Origin: Nitrospiria bacterium
Lineage (GTDB): Bacteria > Nitrospirota > Nitrospiria > DATECO01
Direction: 5' to 3'
Assembly: GCA_035286865.1 (NCBI GenBank)
Contig: DATECO010000170.1
Coordinates: 1 to 32,997, forward strand
Length of the DNA stretch: 32,997 nucleotides
In this document: positions 14,830-31,013 of the stretch, in pieces
Layout of the letters: every line of letters starts with the position of its first letter
Numbering within the stretch: the first letter of the stretch is position 1
Made by a program: the position numbers and the translations under genes
The notes under the pieces: generated by a model
Seen by the model: only the letters and a program-made list of their open reading frames with translations
What the model was told of the DNA's origin: nothing
The model's database searches: none

Positions 14830-16215
14830 TTATCGGCTAGAGACGGCAGAGCCGGAGAGGAGTTCGTCCACCCTTTTGTTGGTCGAGGAGAAAGGGTCCA
14901 TGCAGAGGATGGTCTCCTCCCAGTATCCATTTAATTTCAGATAGGTCCAGTCCACGGTATAGGAACGGTTTCTTTCCTTCGCGAATTTGATGAAGTCCCC
15001 CCTCACCTTAGCTCGGGTAGTCTGGGGAGGGGTGGTCATTGCCCTTTGGATATCATCCTCCGAGACGATCCTTTCAATCATCTCCTGCTCAGTCAAGAGG
15101 TAGTAAAGCCCGCGGGTCCGCTTAACATCGTGGTACTGAAGATCCATCATGGCGATCCTGGAATCATCCCACCCACAGCCTTTTTTTTCCATGTAGGATA
15201 ACATCAATTCTTTCTTCGTGACCCAGTCTATCTGTGCCGAGTTTTGCATGGGATCTTCTTCCATCTTGTCAAGCGCATCCTTCCACTTTTCCATAATGTC
15301 CTGCACCTCCTCATCCTCATCGAGACTCGTCTTGGTGATATATTCATCCAGGCGCTCTAAATAGATACGTTGCACCTCTATTCCGGTTAACTCCCGGCCA
15401 TCCTCCATCTTCACTCGGCGCTTCAGCGTGGTATCTCTTGAAATTTCCCGGATAGCCCGGACAGGATCCTCCAGTTCCACCCCCGACACGAAGGATCCAT
15501 CCTCGATCATGGAGAGGATGAGGTTGGTGACCCCCACTTTGAGATAAGTCGCGTATTCAGACATGTTGGAGTCCCCCACAATGATATGCAGGCGCCGATA
15601 TTTTTCGGCATCTGCATGGGGTTCATCCCGAGTGTTGATAATGCTCCGGGAGGAGGTGGTCGATGAGGAGGTCTTCTCATGGATATGCTGGGCCCGCTGA
15701 GACAAGAAATAGTGGGCCTTGCCGGACACTTTGAGCACCTTCCCGGCGCCAGCATAGACCTGCCGGGTCACGAAATAGGGGATGAGTTGCTCCGTCAACT
15801 TCCAAAAATCGAGGTCCCTGCGCATCAGATAATTCTCGTGACACCCGTAGGTATTGCCCATGGAGTCGGTGTTGTTCTTAAAGATATAAATGTTTCCCTC
15901 CAGCCCTTCTTCTCGCAGCCGTTTTTCAGCGACAGGCAGGCAGGCCTCTAAAAGGCGCTCTCCGGCCTTGTCATGGACCACAAGATCGAAGAGGTTGTCA
16001 CATTCTGGTGTGGCATATTCGGGATGACAGCCGGTATCCTGGTAAAACCTTGCGCCATTGATGAGGAATGCATTGGAGGGCCAACTATTGGGAATGAGGC
16101 CTTCAAAGATATAGCCCAGGATCTTTTCCATGGGCAGGTAGACCCGTCCATTGGGGGAGAAGATTAACCCATACTCATTTTCCAGGCCATAGATACGAGG
16201 TTTCATCGCCTTCAT
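14830..16215 (-). CDS. pafA: Pup--protein ligase PafA
   Basis: Glutamine-synthetase-like Pup ligase/deamidase family. N-terminus MKPRIYGLENEYGL...FLINGARFYQDTGCHPEYATPEC resembles mycobacterial PafA and lacks the Dop loop. Located downstream of prcA, as in actinobacteria. The track start is 16230; ATG 16215 sits one nt after the prcA stop. Confidence 0.85.
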   Translation of the reverse strand: MKAMKPRIYGLENEYGLIFSPNGRVYLPMEKILGYIFEGLIPNSWPSNAFLINGARFYQDTGCHPEYATPECDNLFDLVVHDKAGERLLEACLPVAEKRLREEGLEGNIYIFKNNTDSMGNTYGCHENYLMRRDLDFWKLTEQLIPYFVTRQVYAGAGKVLKVSGKAHYFLSQRAQHIHEKTSSSTTSSRSIINTRDEPHADAEKYRRLHIIVGDSNMSEYATYLKVGVTNLILSMIEDGSFVSGVELEDPVRAIREISRDTTLKRRVKMEDGRELTGIEVQRIYLERLDEYITKTSLDEDEEVQDIMEKWKDALDKMEEDPMQNSAQIDWVTKKELMLSYMEKKGCGWDDSRIAMMDLQYHDVKRTRGLYYLLTEQEMIERIVSEDDIQRAMTTPPQTTRAKVRGDFIKFAKERNRSYTVDWTYLKLNGYWEETILCMDPFSSTNKRVDELLSGSAVSSR

Positions 16216-16216
16216 C

Positions 16217-16909
16217 TTAAGACTCACCACTCTTCTTTATCAGTTCACTAATTTCTTCAGGTATAAACCGCTTAAACTTCCTCCCCTGTCTGGTTCGATC
16301 CAGGGCCGCCACCTCTAGGCCATTGGCATTGATGGCCTGATTGGTTACTCCCCCCAGGGCCTCTATAGAAAGCTTCAGCACCTCTGTCACTCCAGAGGCA
16401 CCCTTGTAGTGCTCCTTGAGAAAGATTATCAGGGCCTCCGATCTCCCGCCGATGACGGTAAATCCCTTCTCGTCATAGATGCTTCCATCAAATGTGATCC
16501 GGTAAATCTCATTGGGGTGGTCCTGTTCCCCCAATCCCACCACCAGGATTTCCACCTCCAGGGGTTTGACATCCTGGCTGAAGCTGGTTCCCAAGGATTG
16601 GGAGTAGGCATTCGCCAAGGACCTGGCCGTAACATCCTCACGGCTGTAAAGATATCCCTTGAGATCAGCATGCCGAATGCCTGCCTTCCGGAGGTTTTCG
16701 AATTCGCTGTATCTGCCCGCCCCTGCAAAGGCAATGTTGTCGTAGATCTCCGAGATCTTATTGAGCGCGCTGGGATTGTCAGCCACCAGTAGGATTCCGC
16801 TGCTGTACTCCATGGCAATGCTGGACCGACCCTTGGCAATGCCTTTCTTAGCATACTCGGCCTTGTCCTGCATGATCTGTTCTGGTGAAACGTAATAGGG
16901 CAGAACCAT
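16217..16909 (-). CDS. prcA: 20S proteasome alpha subunit
   Basis: 230 aa. N-terminus MVLPYYVSPEQIMQDKAEYAKKGIAKGRS, typical of bacterial PrcA. TAATG overlap with prcB. Confidence 0.92.
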   Translation of the reverse strand: MVLPYYVSPEQIMQDKAEYAKKGIAKGRSSIAMEYSSGILLVADNPSALNKISEIYDNIAFAGAGRYSEFENLRKAGIRHADLKGYLYSREDVTARSLANAYSQSLGTSFSQDVKPLEVEILVVGLGEQDHPNEIYRITFDGSIYDEKGFTVIGGRSEALIIFLKEHYKGASGVTEVLKLSIEALGGVTNQAINANGLEVAALDRTRQGRKFKRFIPEEISELIKKSGES

Positions 16910-17739
16910 TAGGCCACACGCCTCCTCTCTATAATGATGTTATAAACTTGCTTGATCCTCTGCTCATCCACATCCTGGATGCCCTGGCGGGTCACCATCT
17001 TGATCGTGGGATAGATCCCGCGGATGAGGTCAGGACCGGCTGTGGCCACGTCTTCTTCAGAGGCATCGTAAAGCGCCTCTAAGGCCAAGGCAACCGCCTC
17101 ATCCTCTGTCATATCACGTTTATAAGACTTTTTCATGGTGTTGCGGGCGTCCTTCCCGCCGGAACCGGTTGCATAGTATTCTGTCTCTTCGTACCGGCCT
17201 CCTGTAATATCATACTTAAAAATCCGCCCTTCTTGGCGTTTTAGGTCATAGCTGACAAAGATAGGAATTACAATGAGACCCTGCACGGCCATCGCAAGAT
17301 TGGCCTTCACCATCTGACCCAATTTATTTGCCTTTCCATCTGTGGAAAGTTTTGCGCCCTCTAGCTTCTCGTAGTGCTCAAGTTCAGTCTGAAAAAGTCT
17401 GGCGAGTTCGATACAGGGGCCCGCCGCTCCGGCAATAGCAATGGCTGAGTACTCATCCGCCTTATAAACCTTTTCGATTCTCCGGGCCGACACCTGAAAG
17501 CCCTCCGTAGCCATACGGTCTCCTGCGATGATGGCTCCGTCCCCGTGACGAAGGGCCAGCACCGTGGTTCCCCTGGGGATTAACGGGGGTCGCTCAAAGG
17601 ATTCGCTTAGTGTCGGTTCTGCCTTCAAGAACTGGAGTGGGGGAATACCCGATTTCTGGACCTGCAGCAGATGGGGATAATGGGAGGAGAGATACTCAGA
17701 GAAACTAGAGGTTTGATCCTCGAGAGGAAATGCACACAC
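16909..17739 (-). CDS. prcB: 20S proteasome beta subunit with propeptide
   Basis: 276 aa. A propeptide of about 56 aa, then LIPRG|TTVLALRHGDG, the Ntn-hydrolase catalytic Thr. GTG start immediately after the pup TAG. Confidence 0.92.
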   Translation of the reverse strand: MCAFPLEDQTSSFSEYLSSHYPHLLQVQKSGIPPLQFLKAEPTLSESFERPPLIPRGTTVLALRHGDGAIIAGDRMATEGFQVSARRIEKVYKADEYSAIAIAGAAGPCIELARLFQTELEHYEKLEGAKLSTDGKANKLGQMVKANLAMAVQGLIVIPIFVSYDLKRQEGRIFKYDITGGRYEETEYYATGSGGKDARNTMKKSYKRDMTEDEAVALALEALYDASEEDVATAGPDLIRGIYPTIKMVTRQGIQDVDEQRIKQVYNIIIERRRVA

Positions 17740-17940
17740 CTACTGTCCTCCTTTTTGAACGTAGTTCTTCACAAACTCCTCGGCGTTTTCCTCCAGAACA
17801 TCATCGATCTCGTCCAATAGCTTGTCGATATTTTCCTTAATCTTTTTGCCTTTTTCGATCACCTCGGGATTAGCGCTCACATGATCATCACGCTTGCCCG
17901 GTTCACGCCTCTTGTCCTTCTTTTGGTCCTGTCGAGCCAT
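17740..17940 (-). CDS. pup: Prokaryotic ubiquitin-like protein Pup (C-terminal GGQ)
   Basis: 66 aa. Disordered basic/acidic N-half, helical Mpa-binding segment DKLLDEIDDVLEENAEEFVKNYVQKGGQ, ending in Gly-Gly-Gln. Confidence 0.9.
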   Translation of the reverse strand: MARQDQKKDKRREPGKRDDHVSANPEVIEKGKKIKENIDKLLDEIDDVLEENAEEFVKNYVQKGGQ

Positions 17941-17964
17941 ACCCTTTTCTCACCCCCTTTATAT

Positions 17965-18073
17965 GTGGGGACCCATGCTAGGATTCGTTAACCGTTCTAC
18001 GTTAAACGTTAATCGTTCTGAAACTCCCACGATTAACGAATCACGATTCACGAATAACGTCCCATGTCCCCAC
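17965..18073. repeat. Dyad-symmetric element with two inverted arrays of 7-nt-phased CGTT / AACG repeats (dop-pup spacer)
   Basis: CGTT begins at 17986, 17993, 18000, 18007 and 18014. ACG begins at 18029, 18036, 18043, 18050 and 18057. A 10-bp perfect apical stem pairs 18007-18016 with 18029-18038 around a 12-nt loop. An 8-bp basal stem pairs GTGGGGAC 17965-17972 with GTCCCCAC 18066-18073. Confidence 0.8.
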
Positions 18074-18131
18074 GCCCCGCGCTCTCCGCCTTAGGCAGAG
18101 TGGCCATCCGTTTTAGGCGGACAAGCCCTTG

Positions 18132-19613
18132 CTAAGACACAATCTGCTCCAAAAGCTCATCCACCGTGGAGGATTGCTCTAAGATGCTCCCCACCAGTTC
18201 CTGGTTCCCCTTGAGGGGCTCCATGAGGGGAACCCGCTTGATAGTGGTATTGCCAATATCAAAGAGGACTGAGGTCCAGCTTGCAGCATAGACCTCCTTG
18301 GGAAACTTTTTAAGACACATTGCTCTGAAGTAGGCCCGTGTGTCAGAGGGGGGGACCTCCCGTGCGCGAACAACATCATCCTGGGTCACAATGGTCTCCA
18401 CATAGTTGCCTCGTTCCAGGGCGTAGTAGAGTCCACGATCCAGCCGGAGGTCGTGGTACTGTAAATCCATTAACGAAATCCTGGGGTCGTCCCAACCACA
18501 CCCCTTCCTCTTCATATAGGAAAGCAGGAGTTCCTTCTTGATGATCCAGTCCAATTCACGAGAGAGCTGCATGGGTTCCTCTTCGAGCCTATCCAGGACA
18601 TGACCCCATTTACCCAGCACATCCCGCGTTATCTCATCGGCGCCACGTGAAGCGCAGTACTGCGCGGCGGCATTGAGATACTCCCTTTGAATCTGGATGG
18701 CGGTGAATTCCCGTCCGTCCCGGAGCTTAACTCTACTTCTTAAGCTGGTATCCCGGGAGATTTCTCGGATAGCCCGGATGGGATCCTCCAGCTCTAGGTG
18801 GGGAATCCCGTGGCCCTCCTCCAGAAGGGACAGAAGCAGCATCATGGTCCCCACCTTAAGATAGGTTGAATATTCCGACATATTGGCGTCGCCCACGATA
18901 ATATGCAGCCTGCGATACTTCTGCGGATCGGCGTGAGGTTCATCACGGGTGTTCATGATCGGGCGTTTCACCATGGTGTTGAGGTCTGTGATCACCTCAA
19001 AGAAATCGGCCCTCTGTGAAATCTGGTAGGAGGTGGCTTCGGTCCGATTCTCCGCACCCACCTTCCCCGAGCCGGTGTAGATTTGGCGGGTCACCAGGAA
19101 CGGGACAAGAACCTCCACAAGGCGCTCGAAGGGCAGTGACCTTGAGACCAAATAATTTTCATGATAGCCATAACTATTGCCCTTACCATCCGTATTATTT
19201 TTATAGACGAGAAACCGGTCAGGTCCGCCCCGCAGCCGGCTGGCCACCTCCCGGCACAGATCCATGATTCGTTCCCCGGCCTTTTCATAAGCCACGAGGT
19301 CGCGGGGATTGGTACACTCCGGTGTGGAATACTCCGGATGGGCCCCATCCACATAAAGGCGGCCCCCGTTGTGAAGGAGCTTATTGAGCAGCTTATTGTA
19401 TTCTGGCCCGGGTCTCTCCTTTTCCCCCTCCACCTCAAAGCCCCTGGCATCCAGTAATGGATTTTCATTCTCATAGTCCCAGATGGCATGGTTCGAGGGC
19501 AGGTGAGGATAGCTGTTAATCAGCAGGATGGAGTTGGACACGGGGTCCTGCGCCGTAAGGTCTTTGGTAGTGATCCCGAATTCGGTCTCTGTCCCTAGGA
19601 CTCTCTTGATCAT
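18132..19613 (-). CDS. dop: Pup deamidase/depupylase Dop
   Basis: 493 aa, same fold family as PafA. It carries the Dop-specific loop [17 protein letters not shown] (compare mycobacterial Dop WDYEVESPLRDARGF). Lies between arc and pup, with an ATGA overlap onto the arc stop. Confidence 0.87.
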
Positions 19614-21379
19614 AAATAGTGCCCTGGGCTGATGTTCTCGATCTGGCGAGAATCGGCGGACTTGCCACCCATCGTGCGTGCGTGGACGATCTTCTCACCT
19701 TTGCGACCCGCGATCCTGGCCCAGTCATCGGGATTAGTGGTGTTGGGTAAGTCTTCATGTTCCCTGAACTCATCTCGGATGGCGCGGATTAAATCTTCAG
19801 CTTTGATTCCCTTTTCGCCCATCGAGATCGCGCGCTTGATGGCATATTTTTTGGCCCGGGCCACGATCCCCTCGATGAGCGCACCGCTGGAGAAGTCCTT
19901 AAAGTAGAACATCTCCTTTTCACCATTGGCATAGGTGACCTCCAGGAACTTGTTCTCATCCGCGGTGCTGTACATCTCCTCCACAGTAAGACCGATCAGG
20001 CGCTGCACCATCTGGAGGCGATTGCCTTGTCCCTGGGCAAGCTCATCCGCGTGATAGGGGAGGTCTTCCGTCAGGTACTTGGAGAAAATCGCATGGGCTG
20101 ACTTCTTATCGGGGCGTTCGATCCTGATCTTTACATCGAGTCGCCCTGGACGGAGGATGGCAGGATCAATGAGATCCTGGCGGTTACTGGCCCCAATCAC
20201 AATGACGTTTCGCAGCCGTTCAACCCCATCGATCTCGGAGAGAAACTGAGGGACGATGGTCGATTCGACATCCGATGAAATCCCGGTCCCGCGGGTCCTG
20301 AATAGGGCATCCATTTCGTCAAAAAATACAATAACGGGCAAACCCTCCTCAGCCTTCTCCTTGGCCTTTTTGAAGACTTCCCGGATCTGCCGCTCGCTCT
20401 CGCCTACATATTTATTCAAGAGCTCGGGTCCCTTGACATGTAGAAAAAAGCTGCGGATATCCTTGCCGGTCCGGCCTGCCAGTTTTTTTGCAATAGAGTT
20501 GGCCACCGCCTTGGCAATCAGCGTCTTGCCACATCCCGGAGGCCCGTAGAGCAGGATCCCTTTGGGAGGAAGCAGACGATGTTCTGCGAAAAGATCCGGA
20601 TGGAGAAAAGGAAGCTCCACCGCGTCCTTGATCTGCTCGATCTGCTCATCGAGGCCACCGATATCCTCATAGGTCACATCAGGCACCTCCTCCAGGACTA
20701 CCTCTTCTACCTCTGACTTCGGGAGTTTCTCCAAAAGGTATCCCGATCGGGGATCAAAGAGCAAGTGGTCTCCCACACTCAGTTTCTCTTTGAGCAAGGG
20801 ATCCGCCAGTTCGGCCACTCGTTCTTCGTCCGCCCTGAGCGTCACAATGGCCCGGTGATCTCCCAGGAGGTCCTTGAGACGAACCACCTCACCCTGCATG
20901 TCAAAGTCGCAGGTCTCCACAGCATTGAGGGCCTCGTTGAGGATGAGCTGCTGGCCTTTTTTTAAGGTATCAATCCGAATCTCAGGATGGAGGTTGACCT
21001 TCATTTTCCGGCCCGCGATGAACACATTCACCGTGCCATCCTTATTCCCGCTCGAAAAAATGGCATACGTTGAGGGAGGTGCAGTGAGCTTTTCAATTTC
21101 CAGTTTGAGGGCCTCGATCTGGGCCTTGGCCTCCTGCAGAGCCGAAATCAGCTTCTCGTTCTGCCGGTAGGCCTGTTCCAATTGTGTCCTGGATTGCCGA
21201 AGATCGCGGGCCTCTTCCTCCAGGGACTTGATCTGCACCCTCAACTTTTCGATCTCCCACTCATACTCACGAGTCTTTTCTTCAGGGGAGGGATTCCCCC
21301 CGGACAGCTGGTCAGAAAGTTTTTTCATCGTGCTCCTGAAAGGATTGAGCCTGCCCTGATTTTTTTTAGATTCCCCCAT
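19610..21379 (-). CDS. arc: Proteasome-associated AAA+ ATPase ARC/Mpa
   Basis: N-terminal coiled coil, OB domains, Walker A GPPGCGKT, Walker B IVFFDEMD, and C-terminal ...GHYL (proteasome-docking YL tail). The track start is TTG 21403. ATG 21379 has AAGGAG 5 nt upstream. Confidence 0.93.
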
Positions 21380-21444
21380 CGTGTCTCCTTTCCGCCGGCC
21401 CAAAATAAAGGTTTCAGAATCTCATGCGAGATCCTTATAATTTT

Positions 21445-21473
21445 ATTTTATCATCTCAATCTATAACGGTCAA
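21445..21473 (-). promoter_or_regulatory. Sigma70-like promoter TTGACC-N17-TAAAAT upstream of arc
   Basis: On the minus strand, -35 is at 21473-21468 and -10 at 21450-21445, inside an AT-rich stretch. It is followed by the inverted repeat ATCTC-N4-GAGAT (about 21421-21434). Confidence 0.4.
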
Positions 21474-21660
21474 CTGTTTATATATTTTTATAGCTTCTTA
21501 TATCATCGAGGCCGAGTCACGAGATGCTGCTCTCTCTTTTTTAGAGATGAATACCCATCGCGAGCGCGAGTGAGTGTGGACAGGCCCCGCTGACGCGCCA
21601 GATCACAATGATAGGAAAACTTCGATTCTCGGAACAAATCAGGAGGAGCTCTCTAGCGCG

Positions 21661-22320
21661 TTAATGTCTGTCGTGACAGCGCTCCAGTTCAGTGATCAGG
21701 GCTGCGGCAGCCTCCTTCGGGTCCTCAGCCATGAGTATAGCGGAGATTAAAGCTACCCCATCTGCCCCCGCGCTTCGCACGTCCTGGACACTTTTCCTCC
21801 GGATCCCGCCCAGGGCAAAGAGGGGTATCTTTATATGGGCCCGCACGGTTCTTAGCACATCGAGACCGAGGGGTGCTCCATACTGGGTCTTGGTCGGGGT
21901 CTCATAAATCGGGCCCAGGGTAATGAAATCGGCCCCTTCTCCTTCGGCCCGTTTGGCCTCCTCGAGGGAATGTGTTGAGACACCGATGAGTTTAGCATCG
22001 CCGAGGACTTTACGAGCTATCCGAGTGGGTACACTATTGGATGGGAGATGGACCCCGTCGGCATCCACTGCCAGGCAGATATCCATGCGGTCATTGATGA
22101 GAAGCCGGGCTGGAACCTTGGCCGTCAACCCTCTCATGGCCTGAGCCAGAGAAAGGAGTTCCCGTGTGGGGAGATCCTTTTCCCTGAGCTGGACGACTCT
22201 AACTCCCCCGGCAAGCGCCGCATCGACCACCTGGGGCAGAGGTCTCCCTTGTGTTTGAAATCGATCTGTAATGAGGTAAACGGGCGGGTGAAGGAGAGCG
22301 GTTCTCAAAACCTTATTCAA
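21661..22320 (-). CDS. thiE: Thiamine-phosphate synthase
   Basis: 219 aa. VYLITDR, VQLREKD, and a TIM-barrel ThiE pattern. No ATG is available: an in-frame stop lies immediately upstream, so the start must be TTG (22320 or 22308). 8-nt overlap with thiG. Confidence 0.9.
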
Positions 22321-23092
22321 TCATGCCTTCTATCGGGCTGCTGGCCGTAGCATATAACTTCTTGGGGATCCTTCCTGCCAGATAGGCCTGTCGTCCCGCG
22401 ATGACGGCATACTTCATGGCCTCAGCCATCCGGATCGGATCCTTAGCCCCGGCGATCCCAGTATTCATAAGGACCCCATGACATCCGAGTTCCATTGCAA
22501 TGGTGGCATCGGACGCGGTGCCCACCCCTGCATCCACGATCACAGGCACCCTTACCGTTTCCAGGATAATACGTATATTATAAGGATTGCGAATTCCTAA
22601 CCCGGACCCAATGGGGGCGGCTAGAGGCATCACCGCTGCGCAACCGATCTCCTCGAGACGCTTAGCCACCACGGGATCATCATTCGTATAGGGCAGCACG
22701 ATGAAGCCCTCCTTTACCAAAATCTTGGCAGCCTCCAGCAGTCCGGCCGTATCGGGGAAAAGGGTCTTCTCGTCCCCGATCACCTCAAGTTTGACCATAT
22801 CCGAGATTCCTGCAGCCCTGGCCAGGTGCGCTGTCCTGATGGCATCCTGCACGGTGTAACATCCCGCTGTGTTTGGAAGGATCTTGTAGACCTTGGGATT
22901 GATGTAATCGAGAAGATTTTCTTTGGTGCGGTCCAGAACATTAACCCGCCGGACCGCCACGGTGATCACATCTGCCCCTGAGGCTTCAGTGGCCTTCTGG
23001 GTTTCTATAAAGTCCTTATACTTCCCGGAACCGACAATGAGACGGGATTTGAACTCAATCCCCCCTACTACCAGCCGGTCATGGACGTCCAT
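22313..23092 (-). CDS. thiG: Thiazole synthase
   Basis: [12 protein letters not shown] and VKLEVIGD (Schiff-base Lys region). ATG 23092 lies one nt after the thiS TAA, with GGAGG inside the thiS tail. The track's longer form (23116) overlaps thiS. Confidence 0.95.
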
Positions 23093-23093
23093 T

Positions 23094-23300
23094 TTATAAT
23101 ATTCCTCCCCCCACAAAGCCTATCACTTCGACCTGATCCCCCTCTTTAAAGAAGGTGCTCTTTAAGTCGTGTCGATCTATAATCTGGAGATTGACCTCCA
23201 CCGCCACGCGATCCGGATTGATCCCGACCTCCTCCAGTAGCGATGATATCGTCGTGGACTCTGTCACTTCACGAGCCGCCCCGTTCAGGACGATTTTCAA
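23094..23300 (-). CDS. thiS: Sulfur-carrier protein ThiS (beta-grasp) with a two-residue extension after the GG terminus
   Basis: 68 aa. [12 protein letters not shown]...[15 protein letters not shown] is typical ThiS throughout, but the frame reads GTG GGG GGA GGA ATA TTA TAA, so Ile-Leu follow Gly-Gly. TTG start with AGGAG 6 nt upstream. Confidence 0.85.
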
Positions 23301-23323: not shown

Positions 23324-23353
23324 ATTATAGGGGATTCAGAGAATCCTTGTCAA
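23324..23353 (-). promoter_or_regulatory. Near-consensus sigma70 promoter TTGACA-N18-TATAAT for thiSGE, with a palindrome in the spacer
   Basis: On the minus strand, -35 is at 23353-23348 and -10 at 23329-23324. The spacer contains the perfect inverted repeat GGATTC-N3-GAATCC (23332-23346). The predicted leader to the thiS TTG is only about 17 nt. Confidence 0.5.
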
Positions 23354-23651
23354 TAAGACCTCCAGACCCATCCCTAGAAGCTCAATATATAATAATGGAG
23401 AGTTTCTCCGGTTTAATCCAGCCTAAATTTGCCTCCTGTTTCCTTACTTTCAAGGTGAATCTTCTGAAGGTTTTCTGAGGAAGAGGGATCAGGAAGAGTC
23501 ATCTAAGGCTTTAGCGCAACTCTTTGAAAGGTTTGATCTCTTATAAGCCAGCGAGTTTAGGGCCAATTTAGATATCGATCGATCTGGTGGCCTTCTCGCA
23601 TGCAAAAATTTTGGATTGCAAAATATTCGGAAAGATGATAAATATATAGAT

Positions 23652-24107
23652 ATGTTAATGCAGATGAAGGTCCGGGGTCTGATGTTTGACCCTTACAGTA
23701 ACGCCTATATCGTCATCCTCCGAGATGAGGACAATACCGAGGTCCTTCCCATTTGGGTCGGAAAGGCGGAGGCCAATGCCATCAGCTTTGCCCTGGAGGG
23801 AATCTCCACCCCCAGGCCCATGGCGCATGATCTTATTAGAAATACGCTGGATGCCCTCAATGCCAAATTGATTAGTGTAGTGGTCACGGATCTTCGTGAC
23901 AATACCTATTTCGCCAAGCTCCACTTGCAATACAAAGACTCAGAGTATACGGTGGATTCCCGACCCAGTGATGCCATTGCCCTGGCCCTGCGTGCGGATT
24001 CCCCAATTTTCGCCAGCGAGGAAGTGATCCAAAAGCACAGCTCTGAGGAATTGGATCGCTGGCTGGACAACTTAAGGCCCGAGGATTTTGGAAAATACGA
24101 TGCCTGA
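23652..24107 (+). CDS. DUF151 / bifunctional-nuclease (BFN) domain protein, copy 1
   Basis: The core VLPIWVGKAEANAISFALEGISTPRPMAHDL...DNTYFAKL...VDSRPSDAIALALRADSPIFASEEV matches the BFN/DUF151 family (Thermotoga TM0160-like). Start is ambiguous: TTG 23616 in the track, or ATGs at 23652, 23658 or 23664. Confidence 0.85.
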   Translation: MLMQMKVRGLMFDPYSNAYIVILRDEDNTEVLPIWVGKAEANAISFALEGISTPRPMAHDLIRNTLDALNAKLISVVVTDLRDNTYFAKLHLQYKDSEYTVDSRPSDAIALALRADSPIFASEEVIQKHSSEELDRWLDNLRPEDFGKYDA

Positions 24108-24816
24108 TACCCGCTTCTCATCAACGGCGATGGTGACGATGCCGAAAAGGCTTGCCACAACAGGCCTCATGAACGGACATATTGTACGCAAGGCAATGCA
24201 AGCGTATCTCAATGAGAATGTCTTCATGGGGATGGTCCTGTCGTGCGTAGAGGTGTACAAGAAGGAGTGCTTCGGTCTGCTCTTGGGTTATCGGACCCCG
24301 GAAAAGTACATCGTGGAACACGCCATTCCCTATCAGACCGTGCGGCGTGGACATAACTGGGCAGAGCTCAGTCACGATAAGTGGAAGGTCATTCAGGAAA
24401 TCCTGAAGAATTTTCCAAAACTCGATGTCCTGGGGGATTTTCACTCGCACACGATGTATCGAGATATCAAGGCACAGGTCTCCCTCAGCCGTGACGACAT
24501 CGAATACATGGACCCGCAAGATCTTCAGATCGTCATTGCGGTGAACGAAAAAAAGCGGACCCGGGATTGGTCCTTGAATTCGGATCGCACCATTTCCGGG
24601 TCCATCGATCGGTTCTATTTTAAGATTGCCGCCTACTATTTTGATCACCCATCGGTCAAGGATTTTCACCCGCTGTCCTCCATTGCCACCTTAGGCGGGG
24701 GAGCTTCTGGCGGGCAAGCTGGGGCAGGAGCACGCCAGAATGGGAACGGAGGGCGACCAGGCCGGCCTAGGATGGCCGATATTCTCTGCCCATTTGTAAT
24801 GGGATATAAATCATAA
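24100..24816 (+). CDS. JAMM/MPN+ (JAB) metalloprotease-like protein with a Gly-rich C-terminal tail
   Basis: ECFGLLLG (catalytic Glu context), then GDFHSHTMYRDIKAQVSLSRDDI, which fits H-x-H-x12-S-x-x-D. All JAMM ligand and catalytic positions are present, with a longer-than-canonical spacer. ATG 24100 lies inside the last codons of BFN copy 1 (ATGCCTGA overlap). The tail is LGGGASGGQAGAGARQNGNGGRPGRPR. Confidence 0.65.
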   Translation: MPDTRFSSTAMVTMPKRLATTGLMNGHIVRKAMQAYLNENVFMGMVLSCVEVYKKECFGLLLGYRTPEKYIVEHAIPYQTVRRGHNWAELSHDKWKVIQEILKNFPKLDVLGDFHSHTMYRDIKAQVSLSRDDIEYMDPQDLQIVIAVNEKKRTRDWSLNSDRTISGSIDRFYFKIAAYYFDHPSVKDFHPLSSIATLGGGASGGQAGAGARQNGNGGRPGRPRMADILCPFVMGYKS

Positions 24817-24936
24817 TTGCGGCCGCACCTCAGCTTTACGGTAAGGGGTCGGGGCTGGCGGATTAGAGGACCGTGCAATTCGGGGAGAGGACACATCCAC
24901 GATCTGTCGTACGAGGCAATGGAGAGATAAATAAGA

Positions 24937-25392
24937 ATGGAAGTCAAGCTCAGCGTGCATGGAATCCTCTCTGACTCGGCAAGTGAGGCACAAATCATCA
25001 TCCTCCGAGACGAAAAGGCGGTGGAGATTCTTCCCATCTGGGTAGGGGTGGCCGAGGGGAATGCCATCCGGTTTGCCATTGAGGGCATTATGTCGGCCCG
25101 TCCACTGACCCATGACCTCCTCAGGAACCTCATCGAGCATCTGAGGGTAGAGGTTTTGAAGGTGGTCATCACCGAGATCCGAAATAATACCTACTATGCG
25201 ACAATCTTTATGAAGCATGATGGGGCCAGCTTGACGATTGATGCAAGGCCCAGCGATGCGATTGCCCTGGCCCTGAGGAGCAAGTGTCCGATTTATGCTG
25301 CCCCAGAAGTCCTCAAGAGAAAATCCCAGGAGAATTTAGATGCCTGGCTGGAGCGTCTTAAGCCAAAAGATTTTGGCAAGTACGATGCCTGA
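24937..25392 (+). CDS. DUF151 / bifunctional-nuclease (BFN) domain protein, copy 2
   Basis: ILPIWVGVAEGNAIRFAIEGIMSARPLTHDL...NNTYYATI...IDARPSDAIALALRSKCPIYAAPEV. About half of the residues match copy 1 in a gapless manual alignment, and the C-terminus DFGKYDA is the same. Confidence 0.85.
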   Translation: MEVKLSVHGILSDSASEAQIIILRDEKAVEILPIWVGVAEGNAIRFAIEGIMSARPLTHDLLRNLIEHLRVEVLKVVITEIRNNTYYATIFMKHDGASLTIDARPSDAIALALRSKCPIYAAPEVLKRKSQENLDAWLERLKPKDFGKYDA

Positions 25393-25451: not shown

Positions 25452-26066
25452 ATGCGAATGCGGCCTCGGGGCAAAATGGACTGCCGGCTTTTTTTATTTT
25501 TTTTATTTCTGGGTACAGTGCCAATCTCATCAGGGTGGGCGGAAGGGGAGTCCATCTTAGAGCGAGGGAGTCACAGTGTCTCAAGACCCGTACAGGAGGT
25601 GGTCCAGGGGGCCCTCCAGGCCCTCAAGGCTGTGGTGGACTTGTGGAGAGATCAAAAGTTTGATGACCTTTATGAGTTGGGAACGGTACAGTCCCGAGGT
25701 CAATTCTCAAAAGAGCAGTTCATCGAGCTGATGAAAAACAGCAACAAAAAGCTTCAGTGCTGCTGGGCCACCATGCAGGACCCAGAGGGATTTCTTGAGT
25801 CACCCACCCAGGTCGCTGTACAGGCTAAGCTGGGTTATGAGAACTTTCAGAACACAAAGTACGCCACCCCGGATCGGGATGCTGAATCGGCCCAATGGGT
25901 AATTTCGTCCAGTTTTGATTCCCAGACCTTTCTGATGGTTCTGCAACAGGAGAGGTGGCGGATCGACCTGACCGAGATCCTTCTGGCCAGCGGCTACCAT
26001 CAAGAAGGCGTGGGATTGACTGGAATGGATGGCCAGGCATCGGGCTTTGCCAGTGATAAGCCCTGA
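25452..26066 (+). CDS. Exported hypothetical protein (signal peptide; possibly an NTF2-like fold)
   Basis: The N-terminus ...MDCRLFLFFLFLGTVPISSGWAEGE looks like a signal peptide. The real start may be the third ATG at 25476. No catalytic motif recognised. Confidence 0.5.
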   Translation: MRMRPRGKMDCRLFLFFLFLGTVPISSGWAEGESILERGSHSVSRPVQEVVQGALQALKAVVDLWRDQKFDDLYELGTVQSRGQFSKEQFIELMKNSNKKLQCCWATMQDPEGFLESPTQVAVQAKLGYENFQNTKYATPDRDAESAQWVISSSFDSQTFLMVLQQERWRIDLTEILLASGYHQEGVGLTGMDGQASGFASDKP

Positions 26067-26074
26067 TTTTTATC

Positions 26075-26102
26075 TTGACTTGTAAAGAATTTTGAATACA
26101 AT
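26075..26102 (+). promoter_or_regulatory. Possible promoter TTGACT-N16-TACAAT for rplM-rpsI
   Basis: -35 at 26075-26080 and -10 at 26097-26102. It overlaps the track's TTG start (26092), which argues for the ATG 26119 start of rplM. The implied leader is very short. Confidence 0.35.
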
Positions 26103-26118
26103 AAATTTATCCTTCAAA

Positions 26119-26565
26119 ATGAAAACACCTTCGATTAAGGAAACGTCCGTTAGCCGAAAATGGTATGTGGTGGATGCCGAAGGCCAGATCCTGGGGAGGC
26201 TGGCCTCCCGTGTGGCGTCCCTATTGCGGGGAAAGCACAAACCGATCTTCACCCCTCACGTGGACACCGGAGACCATGTCGTCGTCATCAATGCCCAGAA
26301 TATACGCCTGAGCGGAGATAAACTGAGGAGCAAGATTTACTACCATCACAGCGGCTACCCGGGAGGGCTAAAGTACACGACCGCAGGGATGCTGAAGAGT
26401 TCCAAGCCGGAACGCCTGGTCCATTTCGCAATCCAGGGGATGCTTCCCAAGAACAAGCTGGGTCGGGCGATGATCAAAAAGCTCCGGATCTACGCAGGGG
26501 CCGATCATCCTCATCATGCCCAGCGACCAGAACCCTTGATGGCCAGTCAAAGGAAAGGCAAGTAA
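26119..26565 (+). CDS. rplM: 50S ribosomal protein L13
   Basis: [52 protein letters not shown] is a canonical L13 N-terminus. Confidence 0.95.
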
Positions 26566-26568
26566 GGG

Positions 26569-26961
26569 ATGAGCAGCGTGCAGTACCACAACACCGGGAA
26601 ACGCAAGAATGCGGTGGCCCGTGTCTGGCTAACGCCTGGGCAGGGAAGCATCAGCGTGAATCAGCGGTCCCTGGAGGATTACTTTCCTCGGGAGATCTGG
26701 AGGATGCAGGTTAAACAACCCCTCGAGCTGTGCGGTCTCATGGGACAGTATAATGTTATGGCCAATGTCTATGGGGGAGGCCTGACGGGACAGGCAGGGG
26801 CGATCCGGCACGGGATCGCCAGGGCCCTTCTCGAAGTGGATCCGAAATTAAGGGGCCGGTTGAGAAAAGAAGGGTTTCTCACGCGGGATTCGCGGATCAA
26901 GGAGCGCAAGAAATATGGGCAGAAAGGTGCTCGGAAGAGGTTTCAGTATTCTAAGCGGTAG
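26569..26961 (+). CDS. rpsI: 30S ribosomal protein S9
   Basis: 130 aa. [12 protein letters not shown]...[19 protein letters not shown]...[18 protein letters not shown]. Confidence 0.96.
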
Positions 26962-26985
26962 TTGTGGGGTCAAGACTCCTTTGTA

Positions 26986-27018
26986 AAGGAAGGCGCCTTG
27001 GCCTTCCTTTTTTTATTT
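26986..27018 (+). terminator. Rho-independent terminator after rpsI
   Basis: AAGGAAGGC (26986-26994), loop GCCTTG, GCCTTCCTT (27001-27009), followed by TTTTTATTT. Confidence 0.75.
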
Positions 27019-27057
27019 CCAATTCTAGTGTGAGTCAGTGGGACCGAGGAGGTTAAC

Positions 27058-28101
27058 ATGATCCGGGTGGCGGTGGTCGGAGGCAGCGGATATACGGGGG
27101 CAGAATTGCTCCGACTTCTCTGCCAGCATCCCCAGGTCAGACTCACCGCCGTAACTTCCGAGCAGTCGGTGGGCAAGGGGGTGGGTGAGGTCTTCCCCTC
27201 CCTTCAGCATCGGCTCTTGCTTGCATATGAGGTCCTGGATGTAACAACGATCTCCCAGAAGGCCGACTTTTTCTTTGTGGCCCTTCCCTCAGGCTCTGCG
27301 ATGGAGCCGGTGGCCCAGCTGGTGGAGAGAGGGAAAAAGGTGGTAGATCTCTCGGCCGACTATCGCCTACGGGATGCCCAGCAGTACCAGGAGTGGTACC
27401 ATCAACCCCACCGTTACCCATCGCTTTTGGATCGTGCGGTCTATGGCCTGCCGGAAATTTATCGTGAACAAATCCAGACGGCCCATCTGGTGGCCAACCC
27501 AGGCTGTTATCCGGTCACAGTGATCCTGGCCCTGCTTCCGATCCTCAAAAACGGCCTCATGGACCTGAACCGGCCTATCCTGATTGACTCAAAATCCGGC
27601 ATCTCGGGGGCCGGGAGAACCCCAGCCCTGACCTATCATTTTCCAGAAATCCAGGAGGGGGTGATGGCCTATGGGCTTGGCCAGCACCGCCACATCCCAG
27701 AGATGGAGCAGGAACTCTCCAGTCTGGCCGGAGGGGCCGTGAAGGTCACCTTCACCCCCCACCTGATCCCCATCAACCGAGGAATTCTCAGTACAATTTA
27801 TCTCTCCCTCAATCCATCCATGGAGACTCAGTCCCTGATCAATCTCTATAGGGACTTTTACAAGACCGAACCTTTCGTGCAGGTCCTGAATAGCGGTCTC
27901 TCGCCCAATCCGCATCACGTAAGGGGCTCCAATCTCTGCCAGATCGGGATCCTTGTGAATCAACGTACAGGGGTGACCGTCTTGCTCTCTGCCATCGACA
28001 ACCTGGTCAAAGGGGCAGCCGGACAAGCCATACAAAATATGAATCTGATGATGGGACTTGATGAAATCCTGGGACTCGGGTCCCCCGGCCTTTTTCCATA
28101 A
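27058..28101 (+). CDS. argC: N-acetyl-gamma-glutamyl-phosphate reductase
   Basis: 347 aa. MIRVAVVGGSGYTGAELLRLL NAD(P)-binding N-terminus and catalytic Cys context ANPGCYPV. Confidence 0.95.
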   Translation: MIRVAVVGGSGYTGAELLRLLCQHPQVRLTAVTSEQSVGKGVGEVFPSLQHRLLLAYEVLDVTTISQKADFFFVALPSGSAMEPVAQLVERGKKVVDLSADYRLRDAQQYQEWYHQPHRYPSLLDRAVYGLPEIYREQIQTAHLVANPGCYPVTVILALLPILKNGLMDLNRPILIDSKSGISGAGRTPALTYHFPEIQEGVMAYGLGQHRHIPEMEQELSSLAGGAVKVTFTPHLIPINRGILSTIYLSLNPSMETQSLINLYRDFYKTEPFVQVLNSGLSPNPHHVRGSNLCQIGILVNQRTGVTVLLSAIDNLVKGAAGQAIQNMNLMMGLDEILGLGSPGLFP

Positions 28102-28148
28102 ATGATCCGGCGTCCGGCTCTGCCGGCGACGGGCGGGGGCGCGGGGGC

Positions 28149-28170
28149 ACCTGCCTGCCGGCAGGCAGGT
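28149..28170. repeat. 22-bp perfect palindrome ACCTGCCTGCCGGCAGGCAGGT in the GC-rich argC-argJ spacer
   Basis: Read directly from the sequence. A weak T-tract (CTTTTCCCTTTGT) follows 8 nt downstream of the palindrome on the plus strand. Confidence 0.8.
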
Positions 28171-28231
28171 CGGAGGACTTTTCCCTTTGTGTAGCCGCAC
28201 GGGCCCCCGCATAATATAGGACAATTCGCGC

Positions 28232-29443
28232 GTGCAGCGTATCCGTGGTGGAATCACCTCTGTGCCGGGCTTCCTGGCCTCCGGAATCCATGCCGGGATC
28301 AAGAAGGATGGAAGGCTGGATCTTGCCCTAATCTATTCCGAGCAGGAATGTGCCCTCTCCGCCGTGATGACCCGAAATCGCTTCAAGGCGGCACCCCTCC
28401 TGCTAGACATTCAACACCTCAAGACACCTAAGGGTCACGCGGTAATCATCAATAGTGGCAATGCGAATGCCTGCACTGGGCGGCAAGGATATCAGGATGC
28501 CTTGGAAATGGCCAGGCTCACCGCGATGGCGTTGGGGATTGCACGCCGGCGCGTCTGTGTAGCCTCCACAGGGGTGATCGGCCAGCCTTTGCCGATGGAT
28601 CGAATCCGGAGGGCGATCCCCCTGGCTGTAAAGGGCCTGAACCGCCGGGGTGGATTGAGAGCGGCCCAGGCCATCATGACCACAGATACCTTTCCCAAGA
28701 CGCTCTGCCTGGAAACCCGCTTGCTGGGACGCAGGGTCCGCATCGCCGGGATGGCCAAGGGCGCCGGGATGATTCATCCCCGCATGGCCACACTATTGGC
28801 TTTCGTTGTGACCGATGCCAAGATTTCCGCTGGACTGCTACGGCTGGCCCTCCGGAAGGCCACAGATCGCTCCTTTAACATGATCACGGTGGATGGGGAC
28901 ACCAGCACGAACGATATGGTGCTTTGTCTTGCAAATGGAAGGGCCATGAATGAACCGATCCGGCGCCACTCACAGGCATTTGACCAATTTACCCATTGTC
29001 TCACTATCCTGTGTACCGATCTGGCCAAGTTGATCGCGAGGGACGGGGAAGGAGCCACCAAGTTGATTGAGATCAATGTCCTGCGAGCGCAAGACCCCCA
29101 GCAGGCCAAGGGCATTGCCTTTGCTGTGGCACAGTCCAGCCTGGTGAAGACCGCCTTTTTCGGGGAGGATCCCAACTGGGGGCGGATCATGGCGGCCATT
29201 GGGGCCTCTGCCGATGGATCCCGCATCCGACAGGACAGGATCGATATCTATTATGGTGAAATCCGGGTCACCCATAATGGGACCGGGTGTGGAAAGGGGG
29301 CCGAAGCCAGGGCCAGGGCCTATCTGAAGCGAGACGAAGTCTGCCTGACCATCAACCTTAAAAACGGAAAAGAGGCTGCCCGAATCTGGACCGCCGATCT
29401 CTCACCGGAATATGCCCGAATCAACGCCTCCTACCGCGCCTGA
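28232..29443 (+). CDS. argJ: Bifunctional ornithine acetyltransferase / N-acetylglutamate synthase
   Basis: 403 aa. GITSVPGFLASGIHAGIKK and self-cleavage site context HPRMATLLAFVVTDA. GTG start. Confidence 0.95.
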   Translation: MQRIRGGITSVPGFLASGIHAGIKKDGRLDLALIYSEQECALSAVMTRNRFKAAPLLLDIQHLKTPKGHAVIINSGNANACTGRQGYQDALEMARLTAMALGIARRRVCVASTGVIGQPLPMDRIRRAIPLAVKGLNRRGGLRAAQAIMTTDTFPKTLCLETRLLGRRVRIAGMAKGAGMIHPRMATLLAFVVTDAKISAGLLRLALRKATDRSFNMITVDGDTSTNDMVLCLANGRAMNEPIRRHSQAFDQFTHCLTILCTDLAKLIARDGEGATKLIEINVLRAQDPQQAKGIAFAVAQSSLVKTAFFGEDPNWGRIMAAIGASADGSRIRQDRIDIYYGEIRVTHNGTGCGKGAEARARAYLKRDEVCLTINLKNGKEAARIWTADLSPEYARINASYRA

Positions 29444-29445
29444 TG

Positions 29446-29474
29446 TTGCAAAAGTTGATCGAGTATGCTATGGT
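29446..29474 (+). promoter_or_regulatory. Possible extended -10 promoter TTGCAA-N17-(TGc)TATGGT for rpsB-tsf-pyrH-frr
   Basis: -35 at 29446-29451 and -10 at 29469-29474 with TG at 29466-29467. This leaves a leader of about 130 nt before rpsB. Confidence 0.4.
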
Positions 29475-29607
29475 TTTGAAACTTAAGCTTTAAATCACAC
29501 ACGCCCACAGATGCCGGAAGGGGTGTTCCTCGCCGCCTGCTGCGGATAGAGGGATGTTTCCGGGAGAAGATGGGGGCGGAGGCAGGAACCCAGAAGGAGG
29601 AATATCC

Positions 29608-30375
29608 ATGTCAGTGATTTTGATCAAGGAATTACTGGAGGCGGGGGTCCATTTTGGTCATCAGACCAAACGCTGGAACCCCAAGATGAAGAGGTATATC
29701 TTTGGAGAGCGAAACGGCATCTATATCATCGATCTCCAGAAGACGGTGAAAAAGTTTCAGTTGGCCTACGATTTTACTAAAAGCACGGCCGCCGAGGGGC
29801 AAGCCATCCTTTTTGTGGGGACAAAGCGCCAGGCCCAGGAGATCATCGAGGAAGAGGCCAAACGCTGTGGGATGTTTTATGTGACCCACCGATGGCTGGG
29901 GGGCATGCTCACCAATTTTCAGACGATCCGCAAGAGCATCGAGAAGCTCAAGAAACTGGAGGCTGGCCGAATCGATGGGACCTTCGAACGGCTCCCCAAA
30001 AAAGAGGTCATCAAGCTTGAAAAGGAACGCGAACAGTTGGAAAAAAACCTGGGGGGAATCAAGGAGATGACCAACCTTCCGGGGGCCGTTTATGTGGTGG
30101 ACACCCGGGTGGAGCGGACCGCAGTGCTTGAGGCCAGACGGCTCATGATCCCGATTGTGGCGATTGTGGACACGAATTGTGACCCGGAGGAGATCAACTA
30201 TCCCATCCCGGGCAATGATGATGCCCTCCGGGCCATCAAACTGATTACCGCGAAGATTGCAGATGCAGTGATCGAGGGGCGGCAGCGCCCCAGCCAGCAG
30301 GTCGAGACTATGGCCGATCTTAAACAGGCCTTCCCGGAGGTCGAGGCTGTAACCGGAAACACGCAACCCTCCTAA
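29608..30375 (+). CDS. rpsB: 30S ribosomal protein S2
   Basis: [30 protein letters not shown] 29608 is preceded by GAAGGAGGAATATCC. The track's upstream extension (29554) is implausible. Confidence 0.96.
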
Positions 30376-30400
30376 CAGACTAAAGAGGAGTGATCACGCA

Positions 30401-31006: not shown

Positions 31007-31013
31007 TCATCCC

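What the first reader, a model, noticed from the sequence alone, without database searches (positions are those of the whole stretch)
23094..23300. ThiS encoded with an Ile-Leu extension beyond the Gly-Gly terminus, divergent from a JAMM protease gene
The ThiS reading frame ends ...GFVGGGIL-stop (GTG GGG GGA GGA ATA TTA TAA). ThiS/MoaD-type sulfur carriers need a free C-terminal Gly-Gly for adenylation and thiocarboxylate formation, so this protein should need C-terminal trimming. Known precedents use JAMM enzymes. QbsD removes the two residues after GG of QbsE in Pseudomonas thioquinolobactin synthesis, and Mec+ acts on CysO in Mycobacterium. The only JAMM-like gene in the window starts 800 bp away (24100-24816), across the divergent promoter region. 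No thiF/E1-like gene is present in the thiSGE cluster. That the JAMM protein is the ThiS-maturing protease is an inference, not something shown by the sequence.
Basis: partly seen in the sequence, partly recalled or inferred. Interest (0 to 1): 0.65.

Follow-up and report, generated by a model that had tools for sequence, protein, structure and literature searches.

The report
Capped ThiS beside an unrelated JAMM
The thiamine sulfur-carrier gene here really does encode two extra residues after its essential Gly-Gly end, a trait shared by most Nitrospirota, but the nearby JAMM protease belongs to a different conserved gene cassette and its position gives no evidence that it trims ThiS.

Summary
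thiS (23094-23300, minus strand) encodes a canonical 66-residue ThiS followed by Ile-Leu and a stop. It is not an artefact. Three independent metagenome assemblies carry the identical junction, and relatives without the G-run are also extended. The cap is a lineage trait. All 15 closest orthologues, all 10 species-level Nitrospirota genomes with thiS-thiG-thiE-mpa synteny, and 109 of 114 further Nitrospirota-type ThiS clusters carry 1-51 hypervariable post-GG residues. One of these is cultured Nitrospira tepida (GGG-SL). GGG itself is invariant, so trimming before adenylation is the sound inference.

The JAMM link is not supported in cis. The divergent neighbour of thiS is a BFN-domain gene, and the JAMM is the second gene of a translationally coupled BFN-JAMM-BFN cassette. 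That cassette occurs in 52 of 74 JAMM loci. thiS lies next to it only in the window's own narrow clade. Of 26 capped thiS loci in other species, 25 have no JAMM within 10 kb. The JAMM looks catalytically intact, so action in trans cannot be excluded.

This is a new member of a known kind, the capped sulfur-carrier proteins. Interest is modest.

The parts
23094..23300 (-). thiS coding sequence (TTG start, 68 codons plus TAA): a capped pro-ThiS
   Evidence: ORF and translation. PF02597 and the TIGR01683 equivalog score above their cut-offs, and both matches end at G66.
23097..23102 (-). Cap codons ATA TTA (Ile67-Leu68), following Gly64-Gly65-Gly66 (23103-23111)
   Evidence: Sequence. Orthologues carry different caps at the same place: IL, II, IV, LS, FNA, LNTQ, LDTNEASR, TKSNHGYE.
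23103..23108 (-). GGAGGA: the Gly65-Gly66 codons, which also form the likely Shine-Dalgarno sequence of thiG, 10 nt upstream of its ATG
   Evidence: Junction read as ...GGG GGA GGA ATA TTA TAA A ATG GAC. Uncapped relatives show the same geometry, with the thiG ATG 8-13 nt after the GG codons. The Shine-Dalgarno role is inferred.
22313..23092 (-). thiG (thiazole synthase). The likely start is ATG 23092, one base after the thiS stop.
   Evidence: PF05690 at 373 bits. The match starts at residue 17 of the longest ORF, which fits a start at MDVHD.
21661..22320 (-). thiE (thiamine-phosphate synthase), overlapping the end of thiG
   Evidence: PF02581 at 205 bits.
23324..23353 (-). Promoter-like site TTGACA-18-TATAAT (12 of 12 matches) just upstream of thiS
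   Evidence: Consensus scan. This is a consensus match only. No TPP riboswitch or any other Rfam family was found in the window.
23616..24107 (+). BFN-domain gene 1 (the likely start is ATG 23652). This is the true divergent neighbour of thiS.
   Evidence: PF02577 at 138 bits. Orthologues start at MLxQMKVRGL.
24100..24816 (+). JAMM/MPN+ metalloprotease-like gene. Catalytic codons: E56 24265-24267, H115 24442-24444, H117 24448-24450, S130 24487-24489, D133 24496-24498. It overlaps the BFN1 stop codon by 8 nt.
   Evidence: Prok-JAB scores 24.5 bits, just under its cut-off of 25. E, HSH and D are invariant in 24 homologues. The AF2 model (pLDDT 75.8) matches CSN5, Rpn11, BRCC36 and CsRpn11 with probability 1.0.
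24937..25392 (+). BFN-domain gene 2, the third gene of the BFN-JAMM-BFN cassette
   Evidence: PF02577 at 130 bits. The cassette is conserved in L007-L011 and in about 45 metagenome loci.

Best explanation
thiS here encodes a capped pro-ThiS: the normal 66-residue sulfur carrier plus a short, functionless C-terminal cap (Ile-Leu). The cap is a lineage-wide trait of Nitrospirota ThiS, not a peculiarity of this genome.

It is encoded by the few bases between the Gly-Gly codons and the thiG start. The Gly codons (GGAGGA) probably double as the thiG ribosome-binding site. The thiS frame simply reads on to the next stop instead of stopping directly after GG.

ThiF-type adenylation and thiocarboxylate formation need the free carboxylate of the last Gly. 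The cap must therefore be cut off after translation by a peptidase that recognises the ThiS fold and its GG end, not the cap sequence.

That peptidase is not identified by gene position. The neighbouring JAMM belongs to a separate, translationally coupled BFN-JAMM-BFN cassette. That cassette was placed next to thiS only in the narrow clade that contains this window.

What is shown: the cap, its conservation as a trait, the junction geometry and the cassette. What is inferred: that the cap is removed, and by what.
For: 1. The cap is real. Three independent assemblies have the identical junction, and relatives without the G-run are still capped.
2. It is a lineage trait:
   - Among 80 species-representative genomes, 53 end at GG-stop, 26 are capped and 1 is a ThiS-ThiG fusion. 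All 10 genomes with thiS-thiG-thiE-mpa synteny are capped.
   - 109 of 114 further Nitrospirota-type ThiS clusters are capped, including cultured Nitrospira tepida (GGG-SL).
3. G64-G65-G66 are invariant while the cap varies in length and sequence. That pattern fits a removed, unconstrained tail.
4. The junction geometry is the same in capped and uncapped genes. The thiG ATG lies 8-13 nt after the GG codons.
5. The JAMM belongs elsewhere:
   - BFN-JAMM-BFN with overlapping stop and start codons occurs in L007-L011 without thiS.
   - 52 of 74 non-duplicate JAMM loci have an adjacent BFN gene.
   - Of 47 loci with at least 1 kb of upstream sequence, only 7 have thiS, and all 7 are from the window clade.
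6. Capped thiS usually has no linked JAMM. A family HMM and a JAMM-motif scan find one within 10 kb in only 1 of the 80 ThiS loci, and that locus is on the same contig as L001. The N. tepida-type locus has none.
7. Precedent that capped carriers are trimmed: QbsE-CF/QbsD and CxnE/CxnF (PMC5925218), and capped PtmS2/PtmS3 (PMC6006322).
Against: - No protein-level data exist, so removal of the cap is inferred only from ThiS chemistry.
- The JAMM is catalytically intact and has the fold of enzymes that cut after Ubl Gly-Gly. All characterised decapping enzymes are JAMMs. It therefore remains a reasonable candidate acting in trans in the lineages that have it.
- I could not build genome-wide presence/absence tables for capped ThiS against this JAMM family. 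Matching by assembly accession failed.
- The claim that complete Nitrospira genomes lack this family rests on an indirect reading of contig lengths in the hit table.
Confidence: 0.62

Rival explanations
1. One reading: the JAMM at 24100-24816 is the dedicated ThiS-maturing protease and removes Ile-Leu to expose Gly-Gly, as QbsD does for QbsE.
For: - The JAMM catalytic residues are intact.
- The MPN fold is close to Rpn11, CsRpn11 and bacterial Ubl-deubiquitinases.
- The gene starts 800 bp from the thiS start, and this layout is kept in 7 related loci.
- There is precedent for capped carriers paired with JAMM enzymes (PMC5925218, PMC6006322).
Against: - Adjacency is confined to one narrow clade in which the JAMM is at least 69% identical.
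- Elsewhere the same cassette lies next to hem/ccsA or other genes, with no thiS.
- Its conserved, translationally coupled partners are BFN-domain proteins, not a Ubl or an E1.
- 25 of 26 capped thiS loci have no JAMM within 10 kb.
- N. tepida has capped ThiS, yet no cluster among the top 120 JAMM-family hits lies on a contig longer than 0.71 Mb. This last point is an inference.
- thiS has its own promoter-like site.
Confidence: 0.18
2. The extension is a sequencing or assembly error in the G-run, or a miscalled stop, and the real protein ends at Gly-Gly.
For: A G6 homopolymer lies directly at the Gly codons.
Against: - The junction is identical in three independent metagenomes.
- Capped orthologues exist with non-homopolymer Gly codons.
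- 109 of 114 related clusters are capped.
- An indel in the run would shift the frame of the Gly codons and the cap, not simply remove the cap.
Confidence: 0.01
3. The cap is not removed. Capped ThiS is inactive as a sulfur carrier, or serves another role, and thiazole sulfur comes by another route.
For: No ThiF gene was found in the window ORFs scanned. No direct evidence of processing exists.
Against: - GGG is strictly invariant.
- thiS stays tightly coupled to thiG and thiE in every lineage.
- The cap is hypervariable, which is the opposite of a functional addition.
- ThiG chemistry needs ThiS-COSH (established knowledge).
Confidence: 0.06

Closest known systems
QbsE/QbsD (Pseudomonas thioquinolobactin) and CxnE/CxnF (chuangxinmycin): capped sulfur-carrier proteins with a JAMM in the same cluster
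   Same: Each is a small beta-grasp sulfur carrier with residues after the Gly-Gly: CF in QbsE and SEAARAEESR in CxnE (PMC5925218). The cap must be removed before adenylation.
   Different: In those systems the JAMM, the carrier and usually the E1 form one conserved biosynthetic cluster. Here the carrier is the primary-metabolism ThiS of a thiS-thiG-thiE operon. The JAMM belongs to a BFN cassette and is next to thiS only in one clade. No E1 is nearby.
Capped PtmS2 (GG-MV) and PtmS3 (GG-C) of Streptomyces platensis with the JAMM PtmS1 (PMC6006322)
   Same: The paper states that capped carriers typically need a protease.
   Different: PtmS1 is clustered with PtmS2 as a two-gene cassette. No such cassette accompanies Nitrospirota thiS.
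Canonical ThiS (TIGR01683; for example E. coli and B. subtilis)
   Same: The core is full length, the Gly-Gly is invariant, and the gene sits directly upstream of thiG, whose start is 8-13 nt after the GG codons.
   Different: The canonical gene stops immediately after GG. This one reads on for two codons.
Rpn11/CSN5/BRCC36-type and prokaryotic JAMM/MPN+ peptidases (CsRpn11, Cap3, bacterial Ubl-deubiquitinase 8tyx)
   Same: The fold matches, and so does the E...HSH...S..D metal site.
   Different: - The spacing is HSH-x12-SxxD, not x7.
- Pfam scores fall just below the cut-offs.
- There is no sequence-level PDB relative.
- The conserved partners are BFN (PF02577) proteins.
- The family has a Gly-rich linker and a conserved C-terminal RPxxAxILCPF motif.

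Membership tests
ThiS (PF02597 / TIGR01683 equivalog) | The sequence matches the family model above its curated cut-off over the full length. | tested here: met
   PF02597 scores 51.8 bits (cut-off 22.5). TIGR01683 scores 67.1 bits (cut-off 37.45) and covers profile positions 1-64 of 64.
ThiS (PF02597 / TIGR01683 equivalog) | The gene lies next to thiG, its functional partner. | tested here: met
   The thiG ATG is one base after the thiS stop, and thiE follows.
ThiS (PF02597 / TIGR01683 equivalog) | The encoded protein ends in a free Gly-Gly. | tested here: not met
   The encoded end is GGG-IL. The Gly-Gly is present but capped. The mature end cannot be tested here.
Capped sulfur carrier with a cognate cluster-encoded JAMM (QbsE/QbsD type) | Residues follow the Gly-Gly of the carrier. 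| tested here: met
   The cap is IL here, and 1-51 residues in relatives.
Capped sulfur carrier with a cognate cluster-encoded JAMM (QbsE/QbsD type) | The JAMM gene is conserved in the same cluster as the carrier across lineages. | tested here: not met
   Only the window clade shows adjacency. 25 of 26 capped loci lack a JAMM within 10 kb. 40 of 47 JAMM loci with upstream sequence lack thiS.
Capped sulfur carrier with a cognate cluster-encoded JAMM (QbsE/QbsD type) | An E1-like adenylating enzyme is present in the cluster. | tested here: not met
   No ThiF/MoeB domain was found in the window ORFs scanned against Pfam. The ORFs at 26092-31727 were not scanned.
Capped sulfur carrier with a cognate cluster-encoded JAMM (QbsE/QbsD type) | The JAMM cleaves the carrier exactly after Gly-Gly. 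| not testable with these tools
   This needs biochemistry or mass spectrometry.
JAMM/MPN+ metallopeptidase | The metal-binding and catalytic motif E...H-x-H...S-x-x-D is present. | tested here: met
   E56, H115, S116, H117 and D133 are invariant and S130 is nearly invariant in 24 homologues. The spacing is x12, not the canonical x7.
JAMM/MPN+ metallopeptidase | The sequence matches the Pfam JAB or Prok-JAB model above its gathering score. | tested here: inconclusive
   Prok-JAB scores 24.5 bits against 25. JAB scores 20.1 bits against 22.5. Several close homologues carry precomputed PF14464 hits.
JAMM/MPN+ metallopeptidase | The protein has the MPN fold. | tested here: met
   The AF2 model (pLDDT 75.8, pTM 0.72) matches CSN5, Rpn11, BRCC36 and CsRpn11-ubiquitin (6fnn_B) at Foldseek probability 1.0 and E-values near 1e-6.

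The most novel reading that the evidence does not exclude
Nitrospirota as a group make thiamine through an obligatorily capped pro-ThiS, and the decapping enzyme is not encoded with the pathway. Two possibilities follow. Either the BFN-linked JAMM described here is a housekeeping decapping enzyme for sulfur carriers, acting in trans in the lineages that have it. Or an unrecognised peptidase does the job, which would make proteolytic decapping a previously unnoticed, possibly regulatory, step of primary thiamine biosynthesis in a whole phylum.
Probability: 0.2. Interest if true: 0.55.

Novelty: new member of a known kind. Interest (0 to 1): 0.33.

Why it matters
Capped sulfur-carrier proteins and their JAMM decapping enzymes are known mainly from secondary-metabolite clusters. 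Here the cap sits on the primary-metabolism ThiS and is nearly universal in Nitrospirota, including cultivable nitrite oxidisers such as Nitrospira tepida. I found no description of this in the papers searched.

It implies an extra, unassigned proteolytic step in thiamine synthesis in an environmentally important phylum. It also warns against assigning that step to a JAMM merely because the two genes are neighbours.

Separately, the BFN-JAMM-BFN cassette is a conserved three-gene unit of unknown function.

Tried and rejected
- **Artefact hypothesis.** Rejected by independent assemblies and by capped relatives with no homopolymer.
- **Cluster representatives as a frequency estimate.** 116 of 148 were capped. 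I set this aside because the 148 are only the best-scoring representatives, not a random sample, and I suspect representatives favour longer members. The genome scan replaced it.
- **Search for any gene family enriched near capped thiS.** Only phylogenetic synteny came out: mpa, dop, proteasome genes and ftsEX-M23-S41. No cytosolic protease candidate emerged. The S41 peptidase has a membrane anchor and sits in a cell-division cluster, so I dismissed it.
- **Generic JAMM-motif scan of all ThiS loci.** It found only the known family.
- **Pairing JAMM-bearing assemblies with ThiS loci by accession.** No overlaps were found, so no genome-level co-occurrence test was possible.
- **L039.** It has a BFN gene beyond the Pup cluster, but that gene is solo and has no JAMM.
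- **Distant JAMM homologues (about 37% identity, probably Acidobacteria by the label of one hit).** They lie next to an ABC ATPase, cysS and ddl. They have no Ubl, no E1 and no BFN, so they say nothing about the substrate.
- **Sequence search of the PDB with the JAMM profile.** No significant hit.
- **NCBIfam.** No model matches the JAMM or the BFN proteins.
- **Rfam.** No TPP riboswitch or any other RNA family in the window.

Full report
**Observation**

The minus-strand ORF 23094-23300 starts with TTG behind an AGGAGA ribosome-binding site. It encodes 68 residues ending ...[11 protein letters not shown], with last codons GTG GGG GGA GGA ATA TTA TAA. Pfam ThiS (51.8 bits) and the NCBIfam thiS equivalog TIGR01683 (67.1 bits, cut-off 37.45) match it end to end, and both stop at Gly66. 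It is therefore a bona fide ThiS with two residues beyond the family's C-terminus.

The next gene is thiG. Its ATG at 23092 lies one base after the thiS stop. thiE follows.

- The G6 run is at 23107-23112.
- The gene divergent from thiS is a BFN-domain gene (PF02577; 23616/23652-24107). The JAMM (24100-24816) is the second gene of that operon and overlaps the BFN stop codon by 8 nt.
- No ThiF/E1 domain appears in the window ORFs I scanned against Pfam. The ORFs at 26092-31727 were not scanned.

**The extension is not an artefact**

Three loci from different metagenomes (L092, L093, L096) carry the identical junction. Relatives whose Gly codons are GGT GGA GGC or GGA GGG GGC have no homopolymer, yet they read on for 2-8 codons (LS, LNTQ, LDTNEASR, TKSNHGYE).

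**How widespread is the cap?**

- All 15 closest orthologues (63-97% identity) are capped. Their caps are 1-8 residues long, with 11 different sequences. Homologues at 44-52% identity end at GGG.
- I scanned one genome per species and kept the best 80 ThiS loci with 10 kb flanks. Of these, 53 end at GG-stop, 26 are capped and 1 is a ThiS-ThiG fusion.
- The capped loci are concentrated in Nitrospirota. All ten loci with thiS-thiG-thiE-mpa synteny are capped. The Thermodesulfovibrionia-like loci with the VNFVGGG ending and no mpa are mostly uncapped.
- A profile search with Nitrospirota ThiS returned 114 new clusters, of which 109 are capped. The first cap residue is usually Ser or Ala.
- One of these is ThiS of cultured Nitrospira tepida (68 aa, GGG-SL), found on a 4.73 Mb contig.
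- Cluster representatives gave a higher capped fraction, 116 of 148. I treat that figure as unreliable because the 148 are only the best-scoring representatives, not a random sample, and I suspect representatives favour longer members.
- Throughout, GGG is invariant while the cap is hypervariable.

**Origin of the cap**

In capped and uncapped genes alike, the thiG start lies 8-13 nt after the GG codons, and the Gly codons form a GGAGG-type Shine-Dalgarno sequence. The only difference is where the first in-frame stop falls. In this window the cap is the six bases ATATTA in that spacer. In longer caps the thiS frame overlaps the start of thiG. In the N. tepida-type locus a 34-nt spacer follows the stop, so overlap with thiG is not required.

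**The JAMM**

The protein scores just below the Pfam cut-offs (Prok-JAB 24.5 bits against 25). In 24 homologues, E56, H115-S116-H117 and D133 are invariant and S130 is nearly so. The spacing is HSH-x12-SxxD. No sequence-level PDB relative exists. An AF2 model (pLDDT 75.8) matches CSN5, Rpn11, BRCC36, the Caldiarchaeum Rpn11-ubiquitin complex, a bacterial Ubl-deubiquitinase and Cap3 at probability 1.0. It is therefore a plausible active MPN+ peptidase.

**Is the JAMM linked to thiS?**

- Orthologues at 55-61% identity, from three other assemblies, sit in the same BFN-JAMM-BFN cassette. The stop and start codons overlap and rplM-rpsI usually lie downstream. Upstream are hem/ccsA or other genes, and no thiS.
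- A metagenome scan added 80 loci. Among 74 non-duplicate JAMM loci, 52 have a BFN gene adjacent. Of 47 with at least 1 kb of upstream sequence, only 7 have thiS, and all 7 belong to the window clade.
- In the other direction, a family HMM and a generic JAMM-motif scan find a JAMM within 10 kb of thiS in only 1 of 80 species-level loci. That locus is on the same contig as L001.
- The N. tepida-type locus reads ftsEX-M23-S41-HHH_8-thiS-thiG-thiE-mpa-dop-prcBA-pafA, with no JAMM and no BFN.
- None of the 120 best JAMM-family clusters lies on a contig longer than 0.71 Mb, although complete Nitrospira genomes are in the same database. This suggests those genomes lack the family. That is an inference, not a direct search.
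- thiS also has its own consensus promoter-like site. No riboswitch was found.

**Interpretation**

ThiF adenylation and ThiG chemistry need the free Gly carboxylate. This is established knowledge, and the published view is that capped carriers typically require a protease (PMC6006322; QbsE/QbsD and CxnE/CxnF in PMC5925218). The invariant GGG and the unconstrained cap fit a tail that is removed.

Nothing in gene position identifies which peptidase removes it. The JAMM's adjacency is clade-specific synteny between two separately conserved blocks. One block is BFN-JAMM-BFN-rplM. The other is thiSGE with the Pup-proteasome genes. The JAMM could still act in trans where it exists. I put that at roughly 0.18. 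I put 0.62 on 'real capped pro-ThiS, decapped by a peptidase that this neighbourhood does not reveal'.

**Novelty and score**

Capped sulfur carriers are a known kind. A near-universal cap on the primary-metabolism ThiS of a whole phylum appears not to have been remarked on in the papers I could search. I rate it a new member of a known kind, with interest about 0.33.

Noticed in passing
window 23616-25392; L007-L011, L097-L147, L172: A three-gene BFN-JAMM-BFN cassette (PF02577 - MPN+ - PF02577) with overlapping stop and start codons is conserved across Nitrospirota: 52 of 74 JAMM loci have an adjacent BFN gene. rplM-rpsI usually follow. Both BFN paralogues end in WLExLKPEDFGKYDA. The function is unknown, and I found no paper linking BFN/DUF151 with JAB.
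   Followed up: partly
window 14830-23300; L012, L013, L016, L018, L019, L027, L031, L032, L039, L040, L175: thiS-thiG-thiE lies directly beside the complete Pup-proteasome cluster: mpa, dop, pup (17740-17940, ending GGQ), prcB, prcA and pafA. This holds in every capped species-level Nitrospirota locus and in no uncapped one. It is probably phylogenetic synteny.
   Followed up: partly
L044:10001-10984: A Magnetococcales genome encodes ThiS fused in frame to ThiG (GGG followed directly by MEPRQQ...RFASRLLVGTGKY...). This fusion would also need cleavage after Gly-Gly.
   Followed up: no
L021, L048, L052, L057, L062 (ThiS-like genes): A group of ThiS-like genes in 'Nitrospirae' MAGs has no adjacent thiG. 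Most of their caps (four of five) end in Gly-Asp: CIRLKGD, CAPCVGD, SLPRGFSMGD, SLSFGLPMGD. This may be a different sulfur-carrier paralogue.
   Followed up: no
window 23324-23353 (minus strand): A perfect 12-of-12 sigma-70 consensus site (TTGACA-18-TATAAT) lies just upstream of thiS. No TPP riboswitch or any other Rfam family is detected anywhere in the window.
   Followed up: partly
window 24670-24816: The JAMM has a Gly-rich, low-confidence linker (pLDDT below 50 for residues 193-218). A short C-terminal motif, RPxxAxILCPF, follows and is conserved even in homologues at 37-45% identity.
   Followed up: no
window 25452-26066: A 204-residue ORF with no Pfam family lies between BFN2 and rplM. 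It is conserved in the window clade (L001, L003, L092, L093, L095). A 198-residue ORF with no called domain lies between the JAMM and BFN2 in L010.
   Followed up: no
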